47,955 nucleotides of DNA, from positions 1-47,955 of IMG/VR virus record IMGVR_UViG_3300045988_175607; one strand, written 5' to 3'. The position numbers and the translations under genes were made by a program. This document shows, in pieces, positions 8,666-25,926 of the stretch; within the stretch, counting starts at the first letter, position 1; each line of letters begins with the position of its first letter. The notes below the pieces were generated by a model, which was not told the DNA's origin, did not search any database, and saw only the letters and a list, made by a program, of their open reading frames with translations. This DNA comes from a virus.

Positions 8666-9847
8666 AAGAGATAGTCTGGCCCTTAACTACTTTTCCTAAG
8701 ACCATGGGGGTTGCGAGTTTTGCTCGCAGCTAACGAGGGAGTCTAAATCTTAAAAGTTTTGGTGAACTTTGGTTAATTCATAAAATTTAATTTTTATATA
8801 TAATAACAAAAGTTTTAAGACATGATAATCTCGTGGGAAAGGAAATATAATGAGCATAGGAATTTATAAATATTAGAATAAACTTAATAATAATATTTAT
8901 ATTGGTTAGAGTAGTAATATTGAAAAGCGATATTCATAGCATCTCTATGATTCTACTTATCGTCCAGAAAAAGGTACTGGGGTAGATATTGCTATTCATA
9001 AATATGGAATTGAAAATTTTACTTTTGAAATTATTGAAGAATGTTCTTTAGATGTTATCAATGAACGAGAAAAATATTGGATAAATTATTACGATTCATA
9101 TAACAATGGCTATAACAGAACTATTGGAGGAGACTCTTTAAAAGGGGAAAATCATCCGCGGGCCATTTTAACTGAACAAGAAGTATGGCTATTGCGTGAA
9201 GCTTATGGACAAGGTTTATAGAGAAATAAAGCTTTTAAACCTTTTTTGGAGCGAGGAATTTCTGAACGATGCCTTATAAAAGTTTGGAATTGTGAAACTT
9301 GGCCTAATGTTCATACTGACGTCTATACTAAAGAAAATAAAATATTGCACAAAAAACAAGTTGGACATAGTGAAGATTAGGTTGGATTATCTTCATATGA
9401 TAGAGCTATTAAACAAGAAGAAATTAATGCTTGGCTAAATGATTATAATCAAGGCATGACAATTAATGCGCTTTCAAAAAAATATAATCGTGATAATGGA
9501 ACAATAGAAAAATATATTGCTAATCCATAGGCAATTACAAAAGTAAAATATAAAGGCAGAACAATAAAAAATATTGAAACAGGGAAAATATTTAAATCTA
9601 TTAGTTCTGCTGCCAAATGGGCACAGTGTGGAGCAACAACATTAACGCGACATTTAGCTGGAGATAAAGTTGCTGGAATAGTGCCTGAATTATTAATTCC
9701 TGCTCATTGGGAAGAAATTTTCTAATCCTGTATCGACTATTCCCTTTGTAGGGAAGTACTGGTGTTATTGGTACACACTGGGAAACGGTAGTTTGCATTT
9801 TAATGCAAAAGAAATAGTCAGTACCATTAGAAATAATGGATTATACG
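8666..9847 (+). ncRNA. group I-type intron (family A) in gyrB with a GIY-YIG homing endonuclease ORF
   Basis: 5' exon ends in U, intron ends in G. 3' core cgactattccc...gggaag...aaagaaatagtcagtaccattagaaataatggattatacg is collinear with the nrdD intron 1 3' core. Splicing gives RNKG-L-GEQDSHELGECLLEP, matching GyrB RYKGLGEM...TMDP. Confidence 0.7.
8850..9725 (+). CDS. GIY-YIG homing endonuclease with C-terminal NUMOD/HTH modules; 6 in-frame TAG codons
   Basis: MSIGIYKY-Q-NKLNNNIYIG-Q-SSNIEKRYS-Q-HLYDS, ...GIENFTFEIIEEC...EREKYWI. The frame is open from 8850 to the TAA at 9723 only if TAG is sense. Confidence 0.75.
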
Positions 9848-10035
9848 TAGGTGAACAAGATTCGCATGAGTTGGGTGAATGTCTGCTTGAACCTGCAACC
9901 CGCAATGTTCAACAGATAACAGTAGAAGACGCTATTGAAACTGAAAAACTTTTTGAAGTTTTTATGGGGCCAAGCACCCAGCCGCGCAAAGAATATATAT
10001 TAAAATATAGTGAGGAAGCAAACGATGTCTATTGA
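9848..10035 (+). CDS. gyrB: gyrB exon 2 (conserved GyrB C-terminus)
   Basis: GEQDSHELGECLLEPATRNVQQITVEDAIETEKLFEVFMGPSTQPRKEYI aligns to GyrB ...EQLWETTMDP...V.DA...LF..LMGD.VEPRR.FI. Confidence 0.7.
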
Positions 10036-14971: not shown

Positions 14972-14985
14972 TTAGTAATATAAAT

Positions 14986-15016
14986 AAAAAGGGGTAATTT
15001 TTACCCCTTTTTCTTT
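14986..15016 (+). terminator. rho-independent terminator
   Basis: ggggtaa-ttt-ttacccc followed by a T run. Confidence 0.8.
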
Positions 15017-15019
15017 TAT

Positions 15020-15988
15020 ATGCCTTTTTTATTTTGTATATTAGGACTATTTCTTGGCGGTTTAATTATTTACCTTATACTGTCACCAAAAGTTCAAAAG
15101 ACTTAGCAGTATAATTCAGATATTGAAAAACTAAATAATAGCTTATCAACTAAGAAATAGGATTTAGAAAATAATATAAAAGAGCTTCAGATTGGCGTAT
15201 CTTCACTCCAAACAAAGAAAAAAGAAATTGAATCAAGCATTTCTTCTTTGGAGCAACAAGCTACTCAATCTGGAGAAGTATTTTTAAAACAACAATTACA
15301 ACTTGCGAAAGAAAAATTAGATAATACTACTCGAATTTTAGAAAAAGCTTATCAAGATGCTGAAGAAGAGTACAAAGAAGAATATTTAGAAACTTTAAAG
15401 AATTATTCTAAAGAATTTTTAAATCTTGAAGAAAGCAATCAAAAAAAGCTTTTAGAGTTACAGACTCAAGTTGCAGAATATCAGGCTAAGGCGACTGCAG
15501 CTGCTGAGGCCGCAAAGCGCGAAGAAGAGAAACGATTAAATATAGATTTTTATCGTTGTATGCTTACTCCAGTAGACATAGAAGAAATTGCGGCAATACG
15601 TTCAGTAGCGCATTTATTGCGCGACCCCGAACCTATTAATAAAGTGATTTGGAAAGTTTATTATGAAAAACCTTATACTGATTTAATAGGGCGAGTAATT
15701 GGCTCAGGTGTTCATTGCGGCATTTATAAAATTACTAATATTGAAAATCAGAAGTGTTATATCGGCCAAGCGGCTAACCTAGCCGATCGATGGCGTTAGC
15801 ACATTAAACGCGGCATAGGGGCTGAGCCCGCCACGCGCAATAAGCTGTACCCCGCAATGCAAGAAATTGGAGTAGAAAATTTTACTTTTGAAGTAATAGA
15901 AGAGTGTGATCGTTCGCTTTTGGACGAACGAGAAGATTATTGGCAAGATTTTTATAAAGCAAAAGAATTTGGATATAGTATAAAATAA
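15020..15988 (+). CDS. membrane-anchored coiled-coil protein with C-terminal T5orf172/GIY-YIG-like nuclease domain (DUF4041-T5orf172 architecture); 3 TAG sense codons
   Basis: N-terminal TM segment LFCILGLFLGGLIIYLIL, long coiled coil, then GIYKITNIENQKCYIGQAANLADRWR-Q-HIKRG...ENFTFEVIEEC...EDYWQ. In-frame TAGs at 15104, 15158 and 15797. Confidence 0.6.
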
Positions 15989-24187: not shown

Positions 24188-25926
24188 TGGAATATCAATT
24201 AATAGCACCAAGAAATAAATAGTATGCCGCGATTGAACAAGTTTTAATTAATCGAGGCATTTCTCCTTAGAATATATCTCATTATTTACGAACCAGTGAA
24301 GAAGATAATTTAAACCCTTCATCTATAATGAATATGCATGAAGGTGCAGTTATGTTAATTCAACATGTTATAAATAATGACCCCATCTTTGTGACCGTAG
24401 ACTCAGATTGTGACGGCTATACATCTGCGGCTACATTAATGAATTATTTAAACATGGCTTTTCCTTATTATACTGCACATTATGTTTCATATGCAATGCA
24501 TAAAGGGAAACAGCATGGCGTTAATTTAGATTATGTTCCAAAAGGAACTAAATTAGCAATAATACCTGATGCTGGCAGTAACCAATATGAAGAGCATAAA
24601 ATATTAAAAGAACAGGGTATTGATGTTTTAGTTATTGACCATCATATTGCTGAAAAAGTATCTGAATATGCTTGTGTAATTAATAATCAACTTTGCGATT
24701 ATCCAACAAAATCATTATCCGGCGTTGGTATGGTTTATAAGTTTTGTTCTTATATTGATAGTTTAATGGGGCAGCATTTTGCAGAAGAGCTTGCCGATTT
24801 AGTGGCTTTAGGTTTAGTGGCAGATATGATGGATTTGCGCGATCTTGAAACGCGCTATCTTATTACAAAAGGAATCCAAAATGTAAAAAACCCTTTTATG
24901 AAAGCTATGACTGAAAAGCAAGAATATTCAATTTCTAAAGCTGGTGGTCTTTGCCCTTTTTCAATAGCTTTTTATATTGCACCTTTAGTAAATGCAGTAA
25001 CTCGCACTGGCACTCAAGAAGATAAAGAGCTTTTATTTAAAAGCATGTTAGATGCTTATGCTTATAAAAAAGTTCCTTCTACTAAGCGAGGTTGCAAGGG
25101 GCAAGAGGAAACAATAGTTGAACAAGCTGTACGAATGTGCGGTAATGTTAAAAATCATCAAACTAAAATACAAGATGAATGTGTTGCGTTAATTGAAGAT
25201 ATTATTCAAGAAGAACAATTATTAAATAATAAACTTTTAATTATCCCTTTAGATAAAGAAAGCACAATGGATTCTAATTTAACGGGCTTAATTGCAAATA
25301 AATTAATGGCTAAATATCAACGTCCAGTTGCTATTTTAAATGAAAGAATTTCTCCAGAAGGAAAAATAACTTATGAAGGCAGCGGTCGTGGCTATGATAA
25401 ATCTAAATTAAAAGATTTCAGAGGGTTTGTGCGGGATTCAGGTCTTGCGCTTTATGCAGAGGGACATGAAAATGCTTTCGGACTAGGGTTCACGCGAGAA
25501 AGCCTACCGTAGTTTATTCAATATTCTAACGATGTTTTAAAAGATTTCGATTTTTCACCATGTTATCTTGTTGATTTTATTTACAATGAAAATTTTATTA
25601 ATTGTGAAGAAATTTTAGACATAGCTCGTTGGTATGATTTATGGGGTCAAAAAATGGATGAGCCATTAATTTGTTTGCAAAGAATAAAAGTTAATAAAAA
25701 TAATGTTGATTTAATGGCTAAAGGCACATTAAAAATAACTATAAATGATGACTTAACAGTTATTAAATTTGGTTCTAATGAAGAAGAATATGCTAATCTT
25801 TGTCCTGAAGTTGGCTATCAAATAATTAATATTATCGGAAAATGTAGTTTTAATAATTATACTGATAAAGCGCAAATTAAATTAGTTGATTATGAAATTG
25901 TTGATAATATGAGGTATTATTTTTAA
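24188..25926 (+). CDS. recJ: RecJ-like DHH/DHHA1 ssDNA exonuclease; full length only with 3 TAG codons read as sense
   Basis: N-terminal AIEQVLINRGIS-Q-NISHYL...DSDCDGYTSAA, DHH (VIDHHI); after the TAG at 25510 the frame continues 138 codons through an OB-fold-like C-terminus to the TAA at 25924. Confidence 0.75.

What the first reader, a model, noticed from the sequence alone, without database searches (positions are those of the whole stretch)
8666..9847. gyrB split by a GIY-YIG-carrying group I-type intron; the intron 3' end mimics the exon 1 terminus and the exon ends on the first T of an apparent TAA
The conserved GyrB C-terminus (…LFEVFMG…PRKEYI) is 1.2 kb downstream of an apparent TAA stop. 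Splicing between U8665 and G9847 recreates codon TTA and gives RNKG-L-GEQDSHELGEC, matching GyrB [8 protein letters not shown]..TMDP. The unspliced message would make a C-terminally truncated topoisomerase ending exactly at the splice point. The last 30 nt of the intron (attagaaataatgga) nearly repeat the exon 1 end (atcgaaataaaggg), which could serve as a P1/P10 guide mimic or a homing footprint.
Basis: partly seen in the sequence, partly recalled or inferred. Interest (0 to 1): 0.7.

Follow-up and report, generated by a model that had tools for sequence, protein, structure and literature searches.

The report
Self-splicing intron inside phage gyrB
The phage gyrase B gene is interrupted by an ordinary mobile group I intron, like the phage T4 td intron, whose homing-endonuclease gene is readable only if the stop codon TAG is read as glutamine.

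Summary
gyrB exon 1 ends at U8665, 8666-9847 (1182 nt) is an insert, and joining U8665 to U9848 restores ...NRNKG-L-GEQD..., a 642-aa GyrB. Its Pfam C-terminal domain and its alignment to solved GyrBs run across the junction.

The insert is a group I intron with a T4 td/IA2-like core. The same intron sits at the same gyrB codon in 8 other phage contigs, 5 of them without the ORF. In my hand-drawn structure 97.7% of cells pair and 33 of 69 pairs show compensatory changes. P1 covaries with the synonymous Gly codon. An independent family model scores the window at 107.7 bits and also recognises the T4-type td intron.

The "intron 3' end mimics exon 1" idea fails. That sequence is the P9 hairpin with a GAAA loop, and the resemblance is at chance level and absent in orthologs. 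The TAA at the splice site is a known, common phage-intron feature.

These are sense codons (Gln), used in homing-endonuclease (HEG) genes and other genes of this phage but nearly absent (one TAG) from about 5,800 replication-gene codons. Recoded intron endonucleases in early genes have been described before.

Verdict: a new member of a known kind, of modest interest.

The parts
6925..8665 (+). gyrB exon 1 (580 codons plus the first base of the Leu codon)
   Evidence: ORF list. Pfam hits HATPase_c, DNA_gyraseB and Toprim.
8665..8667 (+). In-frame TAA straddling the 5' splice site (T|AA). It stops ribosomes at the intron border on unspliced RNA.
   Evidence: Sequence. GGGT|AAGAG, or an equivalent, is conserved in 8 of 9 orthologs.
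8666..9847 (+). Group I intron (1182 nt), with a T4 td/IA2-like core
   Evidence: Structure counts on 9 orthologs. Family CM R1: 107.7 bits, E=1e-20, at 9728-9851. Sub-threshold Rfam Intron_gpI: 27.2 bits, E=1.4e-4.
8660..8684 (+). P1: exon AAGGGU (8660-8665) pairs with the internal guide GCCCUU (8679-8684). U8665.G8679 is the wobble pair at the splice site. An inner extension pairs 8667-8669 with 8675-8677.
   Evidence: helix 1. Column 6-24 covaries with the synonymous Gly codon: GGG/GCCC, GGA/GUCC in L053, GGC/GGCC in L025.
8686..8694 (+). P3 5' strand (ACUACU + UUU). It pairs with 9783-9785 and 9787-9792.
   Evidence: helix 2: 4 pairs with double changes. Paralogous introns have AUACU/GGUAU and AUGCU/GGCAU. 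Family-wide test: 67 of 86 against 46 +/- 4 for shuffled partners.
8695..8708 (+). Hairpin X (CCUA/UGGG). Its loop ACCA (8701-8704) kisses the P7.2 loop UGGU (9769-9772).
   Evidence: Stem covariation seen directly: CCGC/GCGG, CCUAU/AUAGG, CCCGU/GCGGG. Kissing pairs: CG in 5 and UA in 4 orthologs (helix 4). Family-wide: 66 of 86 against 33.7 +/- 3.3.
8710..8730 (+). Hairpin A (GUUGCGAG/CUCGCAGC), directly upstream of J3/4 (UA)
   Evidence: helix 5: 4 of 6 pairs have double changes. L001 has UUAAAAUAU/AUAUUUUAG.
8733..8834 (+). P4-P5 domain. P4 is ACGAG (8733-8737) with CUCGU (8830-8834). P5 is GUC (8741-8743) with GAU (8824-8826). The P5a extension pairs 8748-8761 with 8807-8820. The P- and Q-like elements are UAACGAGGGA and AAUCUCGUGG.
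   Evidence: helices 6-7. P4 is ACGGG/CCCGU in paralogous introns. P5a covaries between the window and L001. The same P/Q elements occur in T4 td.
8836..8846 (+). P6 (GG 8836-8837 with CC 9727-9728) and P6a 5' strand AGGAAAU (8840-8846), which pairs with AUUUUCU (9717-9723). P6a sequesters the endonuclease Shine-Dalgarno sequence.
   Evidence: helix 8. P6a complementarity read, with different sequences in L001 (AGGAU/AUCCU), L053 and L007.
8850..9725 (+). GIY-YIG homing endonuclease gene (291 codons) in the P6 loop. It has in-frame TAG at 8874, 8907, 8937, 9219, 9378 and 9528 (codons 9, 20, 30, 124, 177, 227), read as Gln.
   Evidence: (I-TevI catalytic domain 1MK0, E=5e-10).
9734..9821 (+). 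P7 with its inserts. P7 is CGACUAU (9734-9740) with AUAGUC (9814-9819) plus G9821, with A9820 bulged. P7.1 is 9741-9754. P7.2 is 9759-9781. The P3 3' strand is 9783-9792. P8 is 9793-9808. J8/7 is AAGA.
   Evidence: helices 9-12. P7 changes UA to CG in L053. R1 alignment. Same layout as T4 td.
9824..9839 (+). P9 hairpin CCAUUA-GAAA-UAAUGG.
   Evidence: helix 13: 100% of cells paired, 4 of 6 pairs with double changes.
9847..9847 (+). Terminal intron guanosine (omega-G) at the 3' splice site
   Evidence: Invariant G followed by UAGG in all 9 orthologs.
9848..10035 (+). gyrB exon 2 (TA + 61 codons + TGA). It overlaps the gyrA start at 10025.

Best explanation
Positions 8666-9847 are a mobile group I intron in the phage gyrB gene.

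Splicing (inferred; no RNA data here):
- The pre-mRNA folds into a T4 td-like (IA2-type) ribozyme.
- An external guanosine bound in P7 attacks after U8665, which is held in P1 by the U.G wobble.
- The freed exon 1 then attacks after the terminal G9847.
- This joins ..AAAGGGU to UAGGUGAA.. and restores the universally conserved GyrB motif KGLGE and a 642-aa subunit.
- On unspliced RNA the TAA that straddles the splice site stops ribosomes before they enter the ribozyme.

The endonuclease:
- The P6 loop carries an I-TevI-like GIY-YIG homing endonuclease gene.
- By analogy with I-TevI (inferred), the enzyme cuts intron-less gyrB alleles at this conserved site, so that repair copies the intron in.
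- Its ribosome-binding site is paired in P6a.
- Its frame holds six TAG codons that this phage reads as glutamine, while its replication genes avoid TAG almost entirely.
- The enzyme is therefore probably made only late, once TAG suppression is active. This keeps translation from disturbing splicing of an early gene (inferred).
For: Junction:
- Pfam DNA_gyraseB_C spans the junction.
- The junction aligns with RYKGLGEM of solved GyrBs.

Orthologs:
- The same intron is at the same codon in 9 phage contigs with GC from about 32% to about 60%. Five lack the ORF (239-333 nt) and four carry one.

Structure on alignment A2:
- 97.7% of 606 cells pair, against 83.4% in shuffles (0 of 500 reach the observed value) and 34-44% in the slid controls.
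- 33 of 69 pairs carry compensatory changes.
- The P1 guide covaries with the synonymous Gly codon, and P7 with its partner strand.

Family model:
- CM R1 was built without the window, its close relatives, or three of the gyrB-site orthologs.
- It gives 107.7 bits, E=1e-20, at 9728-9851, and 37 bits, E=8e-7, on the T4-type td intron.
- The P, Q, R and S elements and the bulged P7 match td.

Endonuclease:
- Pfam GIY-YIG 33.8 bits against a cutoff of 22.6.
- I-TevI catalytic domain, E=5e-10.
- The residues that match I-TevI's catalytic set (my recollection of I-TevI) are invariant in 65 homologs: Y6, Y17, R27, E74, N89.

TAG = Gln:
- In L001, 4 of the 6 TAGs align with CAA at the DNA level.
- Gln stands at these positions in homologs.
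- Pfam RuvC, GIY-YIG and RecJ_OB matches run across TAGs in other window genes.
- None of 20 window genes checked ends in TAG, and replication genes carry only one TAG in about 5,800 codons.
Against: - No RNA or biochemical data, so splicing and endonuclease activity are inferred.
- Rfam RF00028 reaches only 27.2 bits (gathering score 50) on the window and 20 bits on an ORF-less ortholog. The same model also misses the proven T4-type td intron.
- The layout differs from td. There is no P2, and two hairpins sit between P3 and J3/4.
- No suppressor tRNA is in the 48-kb window.
- Some Gln residues in database homologs are themselves TAG codons translated as Q by the gene caller, so that count is partly circular.
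- P10 is weak (5 pairs, 3 of them wobble) and is not supported by covariation.
Confidence: 0.88

Rival explanations
1. The intron ribozyme is functional but the endonuclease gene is a decaying pseudogene. On this reading the six TAGs are true stops and no enzyme is made.
For: Under the standard code the frame stops after 8 codons. ORF-less orthologs show that the endonuclease gene is often lost from this intron. No suppressor tRNA is in the window.
Against: - All six interruptions are TAG. There is no TGA, no TAA and no frameshift over 291 codons.
- Four of them align with CAA in L001. Two fall on positions that are Gln in 64 of 65 and 65 of 65 homologs.
- The catalytic residues are intact.
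- TAG also interrupts RuvC, RecJ-like and other domains in the window, and no gene checked ends in TAG.
- A relative, L128, has TAG at two of the same codons.
Confidence: 0.06
2. gyrB is a truly split gene, as in T4 genes 39/60 separated by mobA. The 580-aa product and a separately translated C-terminal fragment (ORF 9793-10035, TTG start) would assemble without RNA splicing.
For: An 80-aa ORF covering exon 2 exists. T4 topoisomerase II works from separate gp39 and gp60 pieces (my knowledge; the PDB match 8yo3 is listed). Public gene callers annotate the truncated 594-aa GyrB as a gene in related contigs.
Against: - The putative fragment would start inside P8 with 18 intron-encoded residues. 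No ribosome-binding site was noted upstream of its TTG start on reading (no formal scan was run).
- The break falls inside the invariant KGLGE motif.
- A conserved, covarying ribozyme with a U.G splice site and a terminal G occupies the gap, even in ORF-less copies of 239-333 nt, where nothing else would explain the insert.
Confidence: 0.03
3. The RNA is a group I intron, but it depends on a protein cofactor (a host chaperone, the ribosome, or the intron-encoded protein) and does not self-splice on its own.
For: T4 introns need translation and chaperones for efficient splicing in vivo (PMC3984707). The window copy has long AT-rich inserts in P5a and P6 that could hinder folding.
Against: The core and the tertiary contacts (kissing loops, GAAA L9) are complete and conserved. 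ORF-less orthologs lack any intron-encoded protein yet keep the same structure.
Confidence: 0.1

Closest known systems
Phage T4 td intron with I-TevI (group IA2)
   Same: - Coding-gene intron in a DNA-metabolism gene, with a GIY-YIG endonuclease ORF in the P6 loop.
- An in-frame stop right after the 5' splice site (td starts UAA...).
- Similar P, Q, R and S elements, a bulged P7, P7.1/P7.2 and a GAAAC-P3' junction.
- An endonuclease N-terminal domain homologous to I-TevI.
- The endonuclease ribosome-binding site is hidden in intron structure, and expression is delayed (Gibb & Edgell 2010, cited in PMC3984707).
   Different: - The host gene is gyrB, not td.
- There is no P2 between P1 and P3.
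- Two extra hairpins lie between P3 and J3/4, and one of them kisses an enlarged 9-nt P7.2 loop. td's P7.2 loop is 4 nt.
- There is no P9.1/P9.2.
- The delay of endonuclease synthesis would use TAG recoding rather than a late promoter. A late promoter was not tested here.
Recoded group I intron endonuclease in an early gene of TGA-recoded 'Agate' gut phages (Borges et al., bioRxiv 10.1101/2021.08.26.457843)
   Same: An intron-encoded homing endonuclease sits inside an early, standard-code gene and carries in-frame reassigned stop codons. The authors propose that this blocks its synthesis until late in infection.
   Different: There the reassigned codon is TGA, read as Trp. Here it is TAG, read as Gln. 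The host gene and intron structure are not given in the text I read. The present case adds structural sequestration of the ribosome-binding site.
T4 topoisomerase II genes 39/60 (mobA insertion and the gene 60 50-nt bypass)
   Same: A selfish endonuclease element interrupts the GyrB-equivalent subunit of a phage type II topoisomerase.
   Different: T4 solves the interruption at the protein and translation level, with separate subunits and ribosome hopping. Here continuity is restored at the RNA level by splicing.
Intron-rich gut jumbo phages (Jug phages, PMC12880540) and Twort-type multi-intron genes
   Same: Many short group I introns and homing endonucleases split essential replication genes such as nrdD, polymerase and terL. 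Splicing is supported by metatranscriptomes for many of them. This window likewise has two more introns in nrdD, and relatives have 2-3 introns in gyrB.
   Different: gyrB is not among the genes reported as split in the text I read. This genome is about 160-180 kb and TAG-recoded.

Membership tests
Group I intron | P1 helix between the exon 1 end and an internal guide sequence, with a U.G wobble at the 5' splice site | tested here: met
   U8665.G8679 is UG in 9 of 9 orthologs. The neighbouring pair covaries with the synonymous Gly codon: GC in 7, AU in 1, CG in 1.
Group I intron | Terminal intron guanosine (omega-G) before the 3' splice site | tested here: met
   G9847 is invariant in 9 orthologs, and only this G restores the reading frame and KGLGE.
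Group I intron | Conserved core P3-P9 with the P3/P7 pseudoknot and a bulged P7 (the G-binding helix) | tested here: met
   Thirteen helices, 97.7% of cells paired, 33 pairs with double changes, 0 of 500 shuffles as high. P7 is C-GACUAU / AUAGUC-A-G, as in td.
Group I intron | Score at or above the Rfam RF00028 gathering threshold (50 bits) | tested here: not met
   27.2 bits on the window and 20.1 bits on ORF-less L002. None of 18 family loci passes. Control: the T4-type td intron is not found either, so this test has little power for ORF-bearing introns like the window copy. The ORF-less copies failing it is not explained by that control.
Group I intron | Homology to an experimentally proven self-splicing intron | tested here: met
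   Family CM R1 hits the T4-type td intron 3' core at 37.1 bits, E=8e-7. The P and Q elements are shared.
Group I intron | GTP-dependent self-splicing | not testable with these tools
   Needs an in vitro transcript or RNA from infected cells.
Subgroup IA2 (T4 td / Twort type) | P7.1 and P7.2 hairpins between P7 and P3' | tested here: met
   Helices 10 and 11 have 4 and 6 pairs with double changes.
Subgroup IA2 (T4 td / Twort type) | P2 hairpin between P1 and P3, with the P3 5' strand directly before J3/4-P4 (as in td) | tested here: not met
   Only AA separates P1 from P3. Two covarying hairpins (8695-8708 and 8710-8730) lie between P3 and the UA before P4. The layout is the same in all family members inspected.
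GIY-YIG homing endonuclease (I-TevI-like) | GIY-YIG catalytic domain with the residues that match I-TevI's catalytic Tyr/Arg/Glu/Asn (my recollection of I-TevI) | tested here: met
   PF01541 scores 33.8 bits against a cutoff of 22.6. 1MK0 matches at E=5e-10. Y6, Y17, R27, E74 and N89 are invariant in 65 homologs. All of this holds only with TAG read as sense.
GIY-YIG homing endonuclease (I-TevI-like) | Site-specific cleavage of the intron-less allele | not testable with these tools
   Indirect evidence only: copies with and without the ORF occur at the same site, and an intron is present or absent at a second gyrB site.
TAG-to-Gln recoded phage | In-frame TAG inside conserved domains of several genes, aligned with Gln in relatives, and TAG not used as a terminator | tested here: met
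   RuvC profile positions 2-144 run across 5 TAGs, and RecJ_OB lies downstream of a TAG. CAA in L001 aligns with 4 of the 6 TAGs. None of 20 genes checked ends in TAG.
TAG-to-Gln recoded phage | Phage-encoded suppressor tRNA(CUA) or release-factor control | tested here: inconclusive
   There are no tRNA genes in the 48-kb window. The rest of the roughly 160-kb genome was not available.

The most novel reading that the evidence does not exclude
The intron belongs to a large phage intron family. The family's peripheral architecture may be an undescribed variant of the IA2 class:
- there is no P2;
- two hairpins are inserted between the P3 5' strand and J3/4;
- the loop of the first hairpin forms a covarying 4-bp kissing contact with an enlarged P7.2 loop.

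This architecture may explain why the Rfam group I model misses the family, including its ORF-less copies. In this recoded phage it is combined with a two-layer delay of endonuclease synthesis: the Shine-Dalgarno sequence is buried in P6a, and TAG codons are unreadable early in infection.
Probability: 0.25. Interest if true: 0.45.

Novelty: new member of a known kind. Interest (0 to 1): 0.32.

Why it matters
- **Annotation.** Gene callers truncate GyrB at the splice-site TAA in this phage lineage (594-aa products in related ENA contigs). Under the standard code they shatter the endonuclease gene.
- **Host-gene range.** This adds gyrB to the DNA-metabolism genes colonised by mobile group I introns. 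I found no paper reporting a phage gyrB group I intron in three literature searches.
- **Intron turnover.** The lineage shows gain, endonuclease loss and multi-site invasion, with 1 to 3 introns per gyrB.
- **Recoding hypothesis.** It gives a TAG=Gln example of the published idea that stop-codon recoding gates synthesis of an intron endonuclease inside an early gene.
- **Detection.** The covariance model and alignment could help detect a phage intron family that Rfam currently misses.

None of this changes current understanding of splicing or homing.

Tried and rejected
- **Rfam scans** of the window, of ORF-less orthologs and of 18 family loci gave no hit at the gathering score. I rejected this as negative evidence after the T4 td control also failed.
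- **My first P7 guess** (GUACUG/CAGUAC) was dropped because L002 and L003 do not keep it. P7 is GACUAU/AUAGUC.
- **My first P4 guess** (CCAUGGG/CUCGUGG) was dropped. CCAUGGG is the 3' half of hairpin X, and P4 is ACGAG/CUCGU.
- **Extending P3 with UUUCC/GGGAA** competes with hairpin X, whose stem covaries. Only the UUU/AAA part was kept.
- **P10** (UAGGU 9848-9852 with GUCUG 8674-8678) is possible, but it has three wobble pairs and the two divergent orthologs do not support it. Left open.
- **The exon 1 mimic** was rejected (P9 covariation).
- **blastn against 50,697 phage records** found no close relative of the locus. It found one partial intron match, in Enterococcus phage VRE9_3.
- **A first regex for the P7.2 loop was wrong** and was replaced.
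- **Promoter scan** of the intron: TTCATA-16-TATAAT at 8777-8804 in the P5a insert. Sixteen sites were found against 7.5 +/- 3.4 expected in this AT-rich DNA, so I do not treat it as evidence.
- **Literature searches** for an L7.2 contact or for P3-P4 inserts found nothing usable.
- **Translational bypass and intein readings** do not fit. A 1182-nt gap with stops in all frames is too long for bypass, and there are no intein motifs.
Full report
**1. What is in the sequence**

The gyrB ORF starts at 6925 and runs to a TAA at 8665-8667. The conserved GyrB C-terminus is encoded 1.2 kb downstream, at 9848-10035, overlapping the gyrA start at 10025.

Removing 8666-9847 joins ..AAA GGG U to UA GGU GAA.. 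and gives ..NRNKG-L-GEQDSHELGEC..

Two tests show the join is correct:
- Pfam DNA_gyraseB_C matches profile positions 2-62 of 63 over residues 571-631, straight across the junction at residue 581.
- phmmer aligns 'inrnKGLGEqdshelgecllep' with '[22 protein letters not shown]' of solved gyrase B chains.

The insert holds one long frame, 8850-9725. Its N-terminus is a GIY-YIG domain, but it is interrupted by six TAG codons and by no other stop.

**2. Is it a group I intron?**

Rfam gives nothing at its gathering score. At the E-value threshold it gives a 27-bit Intron_gpI hit on the 3' part. I therefore looked for relatives.

*Relatives.* A 162-kb IMG/VR contig (L001) is colinear with the window at 88.6% identity and has the same insert. 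A pattern from the 3' core, and a second pattern from the P4-P5 region, recovered the same element at exactly the same gyrB codon (..KG|LGE..) in seven more contigs. These contigs range from about 32% to about 60% GC. In five of the nine copies the element is only 239-333 nt and has no ORF.

*Structure.* From these nine copies I derived the structure by hand:
- P1: exon AAGGGU with guide GCCCUU, U.G at the splice site.
- P3.
- Two hairpins that I call X and A.
- P4 (ACGAG/CUCGU), P5 and P5a.
- P6 and P6a, with the ORF in the loop.
- P7 (C-GACUAU / AUAGUC-A-G, with a bulge), P7.1 and P7.2.
- P8.
- P9 with a GAAA loop.
- A terminal G.

*Pair counts on alignment A2.*

| Measure | Observed | Control |
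|---|---|---|
| Cells forming a standard pair (606 cells) | 97.7% | 83.4% in column shuffles (0 of 500 as high); 34-44% with 3' partners slid by 1-3 columns |
| Pairs with a change on both sides | 33 of 69 | 16.6 +/- 2.4 in shuffles |

Three covariations stand out:
- The P1 guide follows the synonymous Gly codon: GGG/GCCC, GGA/GUCC, GGC/GGCC.
- P7 changes U-A to C-G in L053.
- A 4-bp loop-loop contact between hairpin X and the P7.2 loop switches between ACCA/UGGU, AUCA/UGAU and ACCG/CGGU.

*Independent model.* I built a covariance model of the 3' domain from 42 other members of the family. It excludes the window, its close relatives L001 and L004, and the gyrB-site orthologs L002, L003 and L053.
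- It scores the window at 107.7 bits, E=1e-20, at 9728-9851.
- It also hits the 3' core of a T4-type td intron, the textbook self-splicing IA2 intron, at 37 bits, E=8e-7.
- The td sequence shows the same P, Q, R and S elements and the same P7 layout.

*Control for the Rfam miss.* Rfam's model does not find that td intron even at E<=0.01. Its failure on an ORF-bearing copy like the window's therefore says little. The control does not explain why ORF-less copies also fall short (20 bits on L002).

**3.

*(a) The intron 3' end mimics exon 1.* The stretch in question, 9824-9839, is the P9 hairpin CCAUUA-GAAA-UAAUGG.
- In orthologs it keeps pairing with different sequences, for example GCCGCUA/UAGCGGA. 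Four of its six pairs covary.
- Those orthologs' exon 1 ends look nothing like it.
- In the window the likeness needs an indel plus mismatches.
- Ungapped matches to the exon end with up to 3 mismatches occur 12 times, against 8.8 expected, and the intron site is not one of them.

I reject the claim.

*(b) The exon ends on the T of a TAA.* This is true, and it is conserved in 8 of 9 orthologs. In L025 the stop comes five codons later. It is also a well-known property. td starts with UAA, and the review PMC3984707 describes in-frame stops after the upstream exon as a common device that stalls ribosomes so the intron can fold.

**4. The endonuclease and the TAG codons**

*The enzyme.* With TAG read as an amino acid the ORF is a 291-aa protein.
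- It passes the Pfam GIY-YIG cutoff.
- Its first 90 residues match the I-TevI catalytic domain at E=5e-10.
- More than 500 full-length homologs exist. Y6, Y17, R27, E74 and N89 are invariant among 65 of them that I aligned. By my recollection these correspond to I-TevI's catalytic residues.

*Evidence that TAG is a sense codon, Gln.*
- In L001 the orthologous gene is open in the standard code, and 4 of the window's 6 TAGs align with CAA.
- In 65 homologs, Gln is the most common residue at codons 9 and 20, and stands at codon 30 in 64 and at codon 177 in all 65.
- Caveat: some of those Q residues are themselves TAG codons translated as Q by the database's gene caller. L128/P0002 shows this. The DNA-level comparisons are therefore the stronger evidence.
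- Elsewhere in the window, a RuvC match covers profile positions 2-144 across five TAGs, a RecJ_OB domain lies downstream of a TAG, and a second GIY-YIG domain spans a TAG.
- None of 20 genes checked ends in TAG.
- The replication genes (gyrB, gyrA, ligA, dnaB, primase, helicase, dnaE, nrdD, recJ-like), about 5,800 codons, contain a single TAG, in the recJ-like gene. The endonuclease uses TAG for 6 of its 12 Gln-type codons.

*Ribosome-binding site.* The endonuclease Shine-Dalgarno sequence, AGGAAAU at 8840-8846, pairs with AUUUUCU at 9717-9723 to form P6a. The equivalent stems in L001, L053 and L007 have different sequences.

*Mechanistic reading (inferred).* The endonuclease is kept silent while the early gyrB message is being spliced. 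Structure hides its ribosome-binding site, and its TAG codons are unreadable until the phage's suppression system is on.

This idea is already published for a TGA-recoded intron endonuclease in an early gene of Agate phages (Borges et al.). It also echoes the delayed translation of I-TevI (Gibb & Edgell 2010, cited in PMC3984707).

**5. Context and turnover**

The window is a replication module: gyrB, gyrA, NAD ligase, DnaB, primase, RecJ-like, helicase, DnaE and NrdD. It is rich in selfish elements.
- nrdD is split by two more introns.
- DnaE has a weak intein match.

In relatives, gyrB carries further introns of the same family at ..AADA|DPDG.., in the Toprim acidic motif. L004 has one there with a TAG-containing GIY-YIG gene, L003 has one without an ORF, and L003 has a third intron cut by the contig end. 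The window has none at that site.

This mix of copies with and without the ORF, and of occupied and empty sites, is the expected signature of homing, endonuclease loss and re-invasion.

**6. How it compares with what is known**

It works like T4 td/I-TevI and is related to it. It is not a canonical IA2 intron in one respect.
- In td, P2 lies between P1 and P3, and the P3 5' strand directly precedes J3/4.
- In this family P2 is missing, and hairpins X and A lie between P3 and J3/4.
- X kisses a 9-nt P7.2 loop. Family-wide, the complement of the loop 4-mer is present in the X region in 66 of 86 non-redundant introns, against 33.7 +/- 3.3 with shuffled partners.
- The family is large.

I could not check whether this layout is already catalogued in the specialised group I databases.

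I found no report of a group I intron in a phage gyrB. Introns in many other phage replication genes are commonplace.

**7. Verdict**

The finding is real, and its main interpretation is right. The "mimic" embellishment is wrong, and the TAA is ordinary. The overlooked TAG-recoded endonuclease is the most interesting detail, but it has a published precedent. This is a new member of a known kind, of modest interest.

Noticed in passing
window 8874, 8907, 8937, 9219, 9378, 9528 (HEG); 40721-41218; 25510-25512; 14984-15988; 39138-47955: This phage reads TAG as a sense codon (Gln). The evidence is the six TAGs in the intron endonuclease, five in a RuvC-like gene, one joining the two halves of a RecJ-like gene, and many in ORFs at 39-48 kb on both strands. 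Replication genes carry only one TAG, and no gene checked ends in TAG.
   Followed up: yes
window 34595-35114 and 35691-36781: The anaerobic ribonucleotide reductase gene nrdD is split by two more group I introns.
- The first (..PCMG|CRSFLTP..) belongs to the same family (R1: 72 bits, E=3e-13) and holds a 110-aa ORF at 34644-34976.
- The second (..NSYH|VPVFEE..) starts with an in-frame TAA. It holds a 234-aa ORF (35903-36607) with no Pfam match, and model R1 does not detect it.
   Followed up: partly
window about 29300-30270, within dnaE 27703-32760: The 1685-aa DNA polymerase III alpha homolog has a sub-threshold Pfam Intein_splicing match over residues 533-855 (29.7 bits, cutoff 35.8). This suggests an intein.
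   Followed up: no
L004 about 1675-2744; L003 (- strand) about 9648-9392 and 10817-10778: Related phages carry additional introns of the same family in gyrB at ..AADA|DPDG.., the Toprim acidic motif. The L004 copy has a GIY-YIG gene that also contains in-frame TAGs (YIG*SN). L003 has three introns in one gyrB. The window has no intron at that site.
   Followed up: partly
window 8686-8730 and 9759-9781; loci L002-L126: Family-wide architecture: there is no P2, two hairpins lie between P3 and J3/4, and a covarying 4-bp kissing contact links the first hairpin's loop to a 9-nt P7.2 loop (UAUUGRUAC). T4 td lacks all three features. I do not know whether this layout has been described.
   Followed up: partly
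L127 (T4-type td locus), L002, and 18 IMG/VR loci: Rfam RF00028 misses this whole intron family at its gathering score. It also fails to report the T4-type td intron at E<=0.01.
   Followed up: yes
L128-L131 (ENA and Logan contigs of 160-178 kb and 5.4 kb): Public gene calls in related contigs list GyrB as a truncated product of 589-594 aa that ends at the splice site (480 aa in L130). They translate the intron endonuclease with TAG as Q. As a result, Gln counts in database homologs are partly circular evidence for the recoding.
   Followed up: yes
window 8744-8747 with 8821-8823, and 9830-9833: The P5 internal loop (5'-UCUAAA..CAUGA-3'; UCUAAG..UAUGA in L004) resembles the 11-nt GAAA-tetraloop receptor, and L9 is GAAA. 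Orthologs with GUGA or GCAA in L9 (L087, L025, L007) have a continuous P5 helix instead. This rests on my own knowledge of the receptor motif and was not tested.
   Followed up: no
window 8777-8804: The AT-rich P5a insert holds a promoter-like TTCATA-16-TATAAT just upstream of the endonuclease gene. The P5 region is long (82-97 nt) only in three of the four ORF-bearing copies (window, L001, L053). The scan is barely above the chance level.
   Followed up: no
window 14984-15988: A free-standing GIY-YIG endonuclease domain is fused to a long coiled-coil or transmembrane-like N-terminus. It has in-frame TAGs, one of them in the YIG-Q motif. It lies between ligA and the next gene.
   Followed up: partly
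window 4855-4864 (+), 15045-15054 (-), 40382-40492 (+): Further S-element-like motifs (AGATATAGTC, AGAAATAGTC) and a weak R1 hit (E=0.28). These could mark degenerate or divergent introns.
   Followed up: no
L006 = Enterococcus phage VRE9_3, PP680569.1, 136602-136729 and 137521-137631: An isolated, sequenced phage carries two introns recognised by the family model (109.6 and 39.1 bits), next to annotated homing and HNH endonucleases. One of the two was used to build the model. The record annotates only tiny hypothetical ORFs there.
   Followed up: partly
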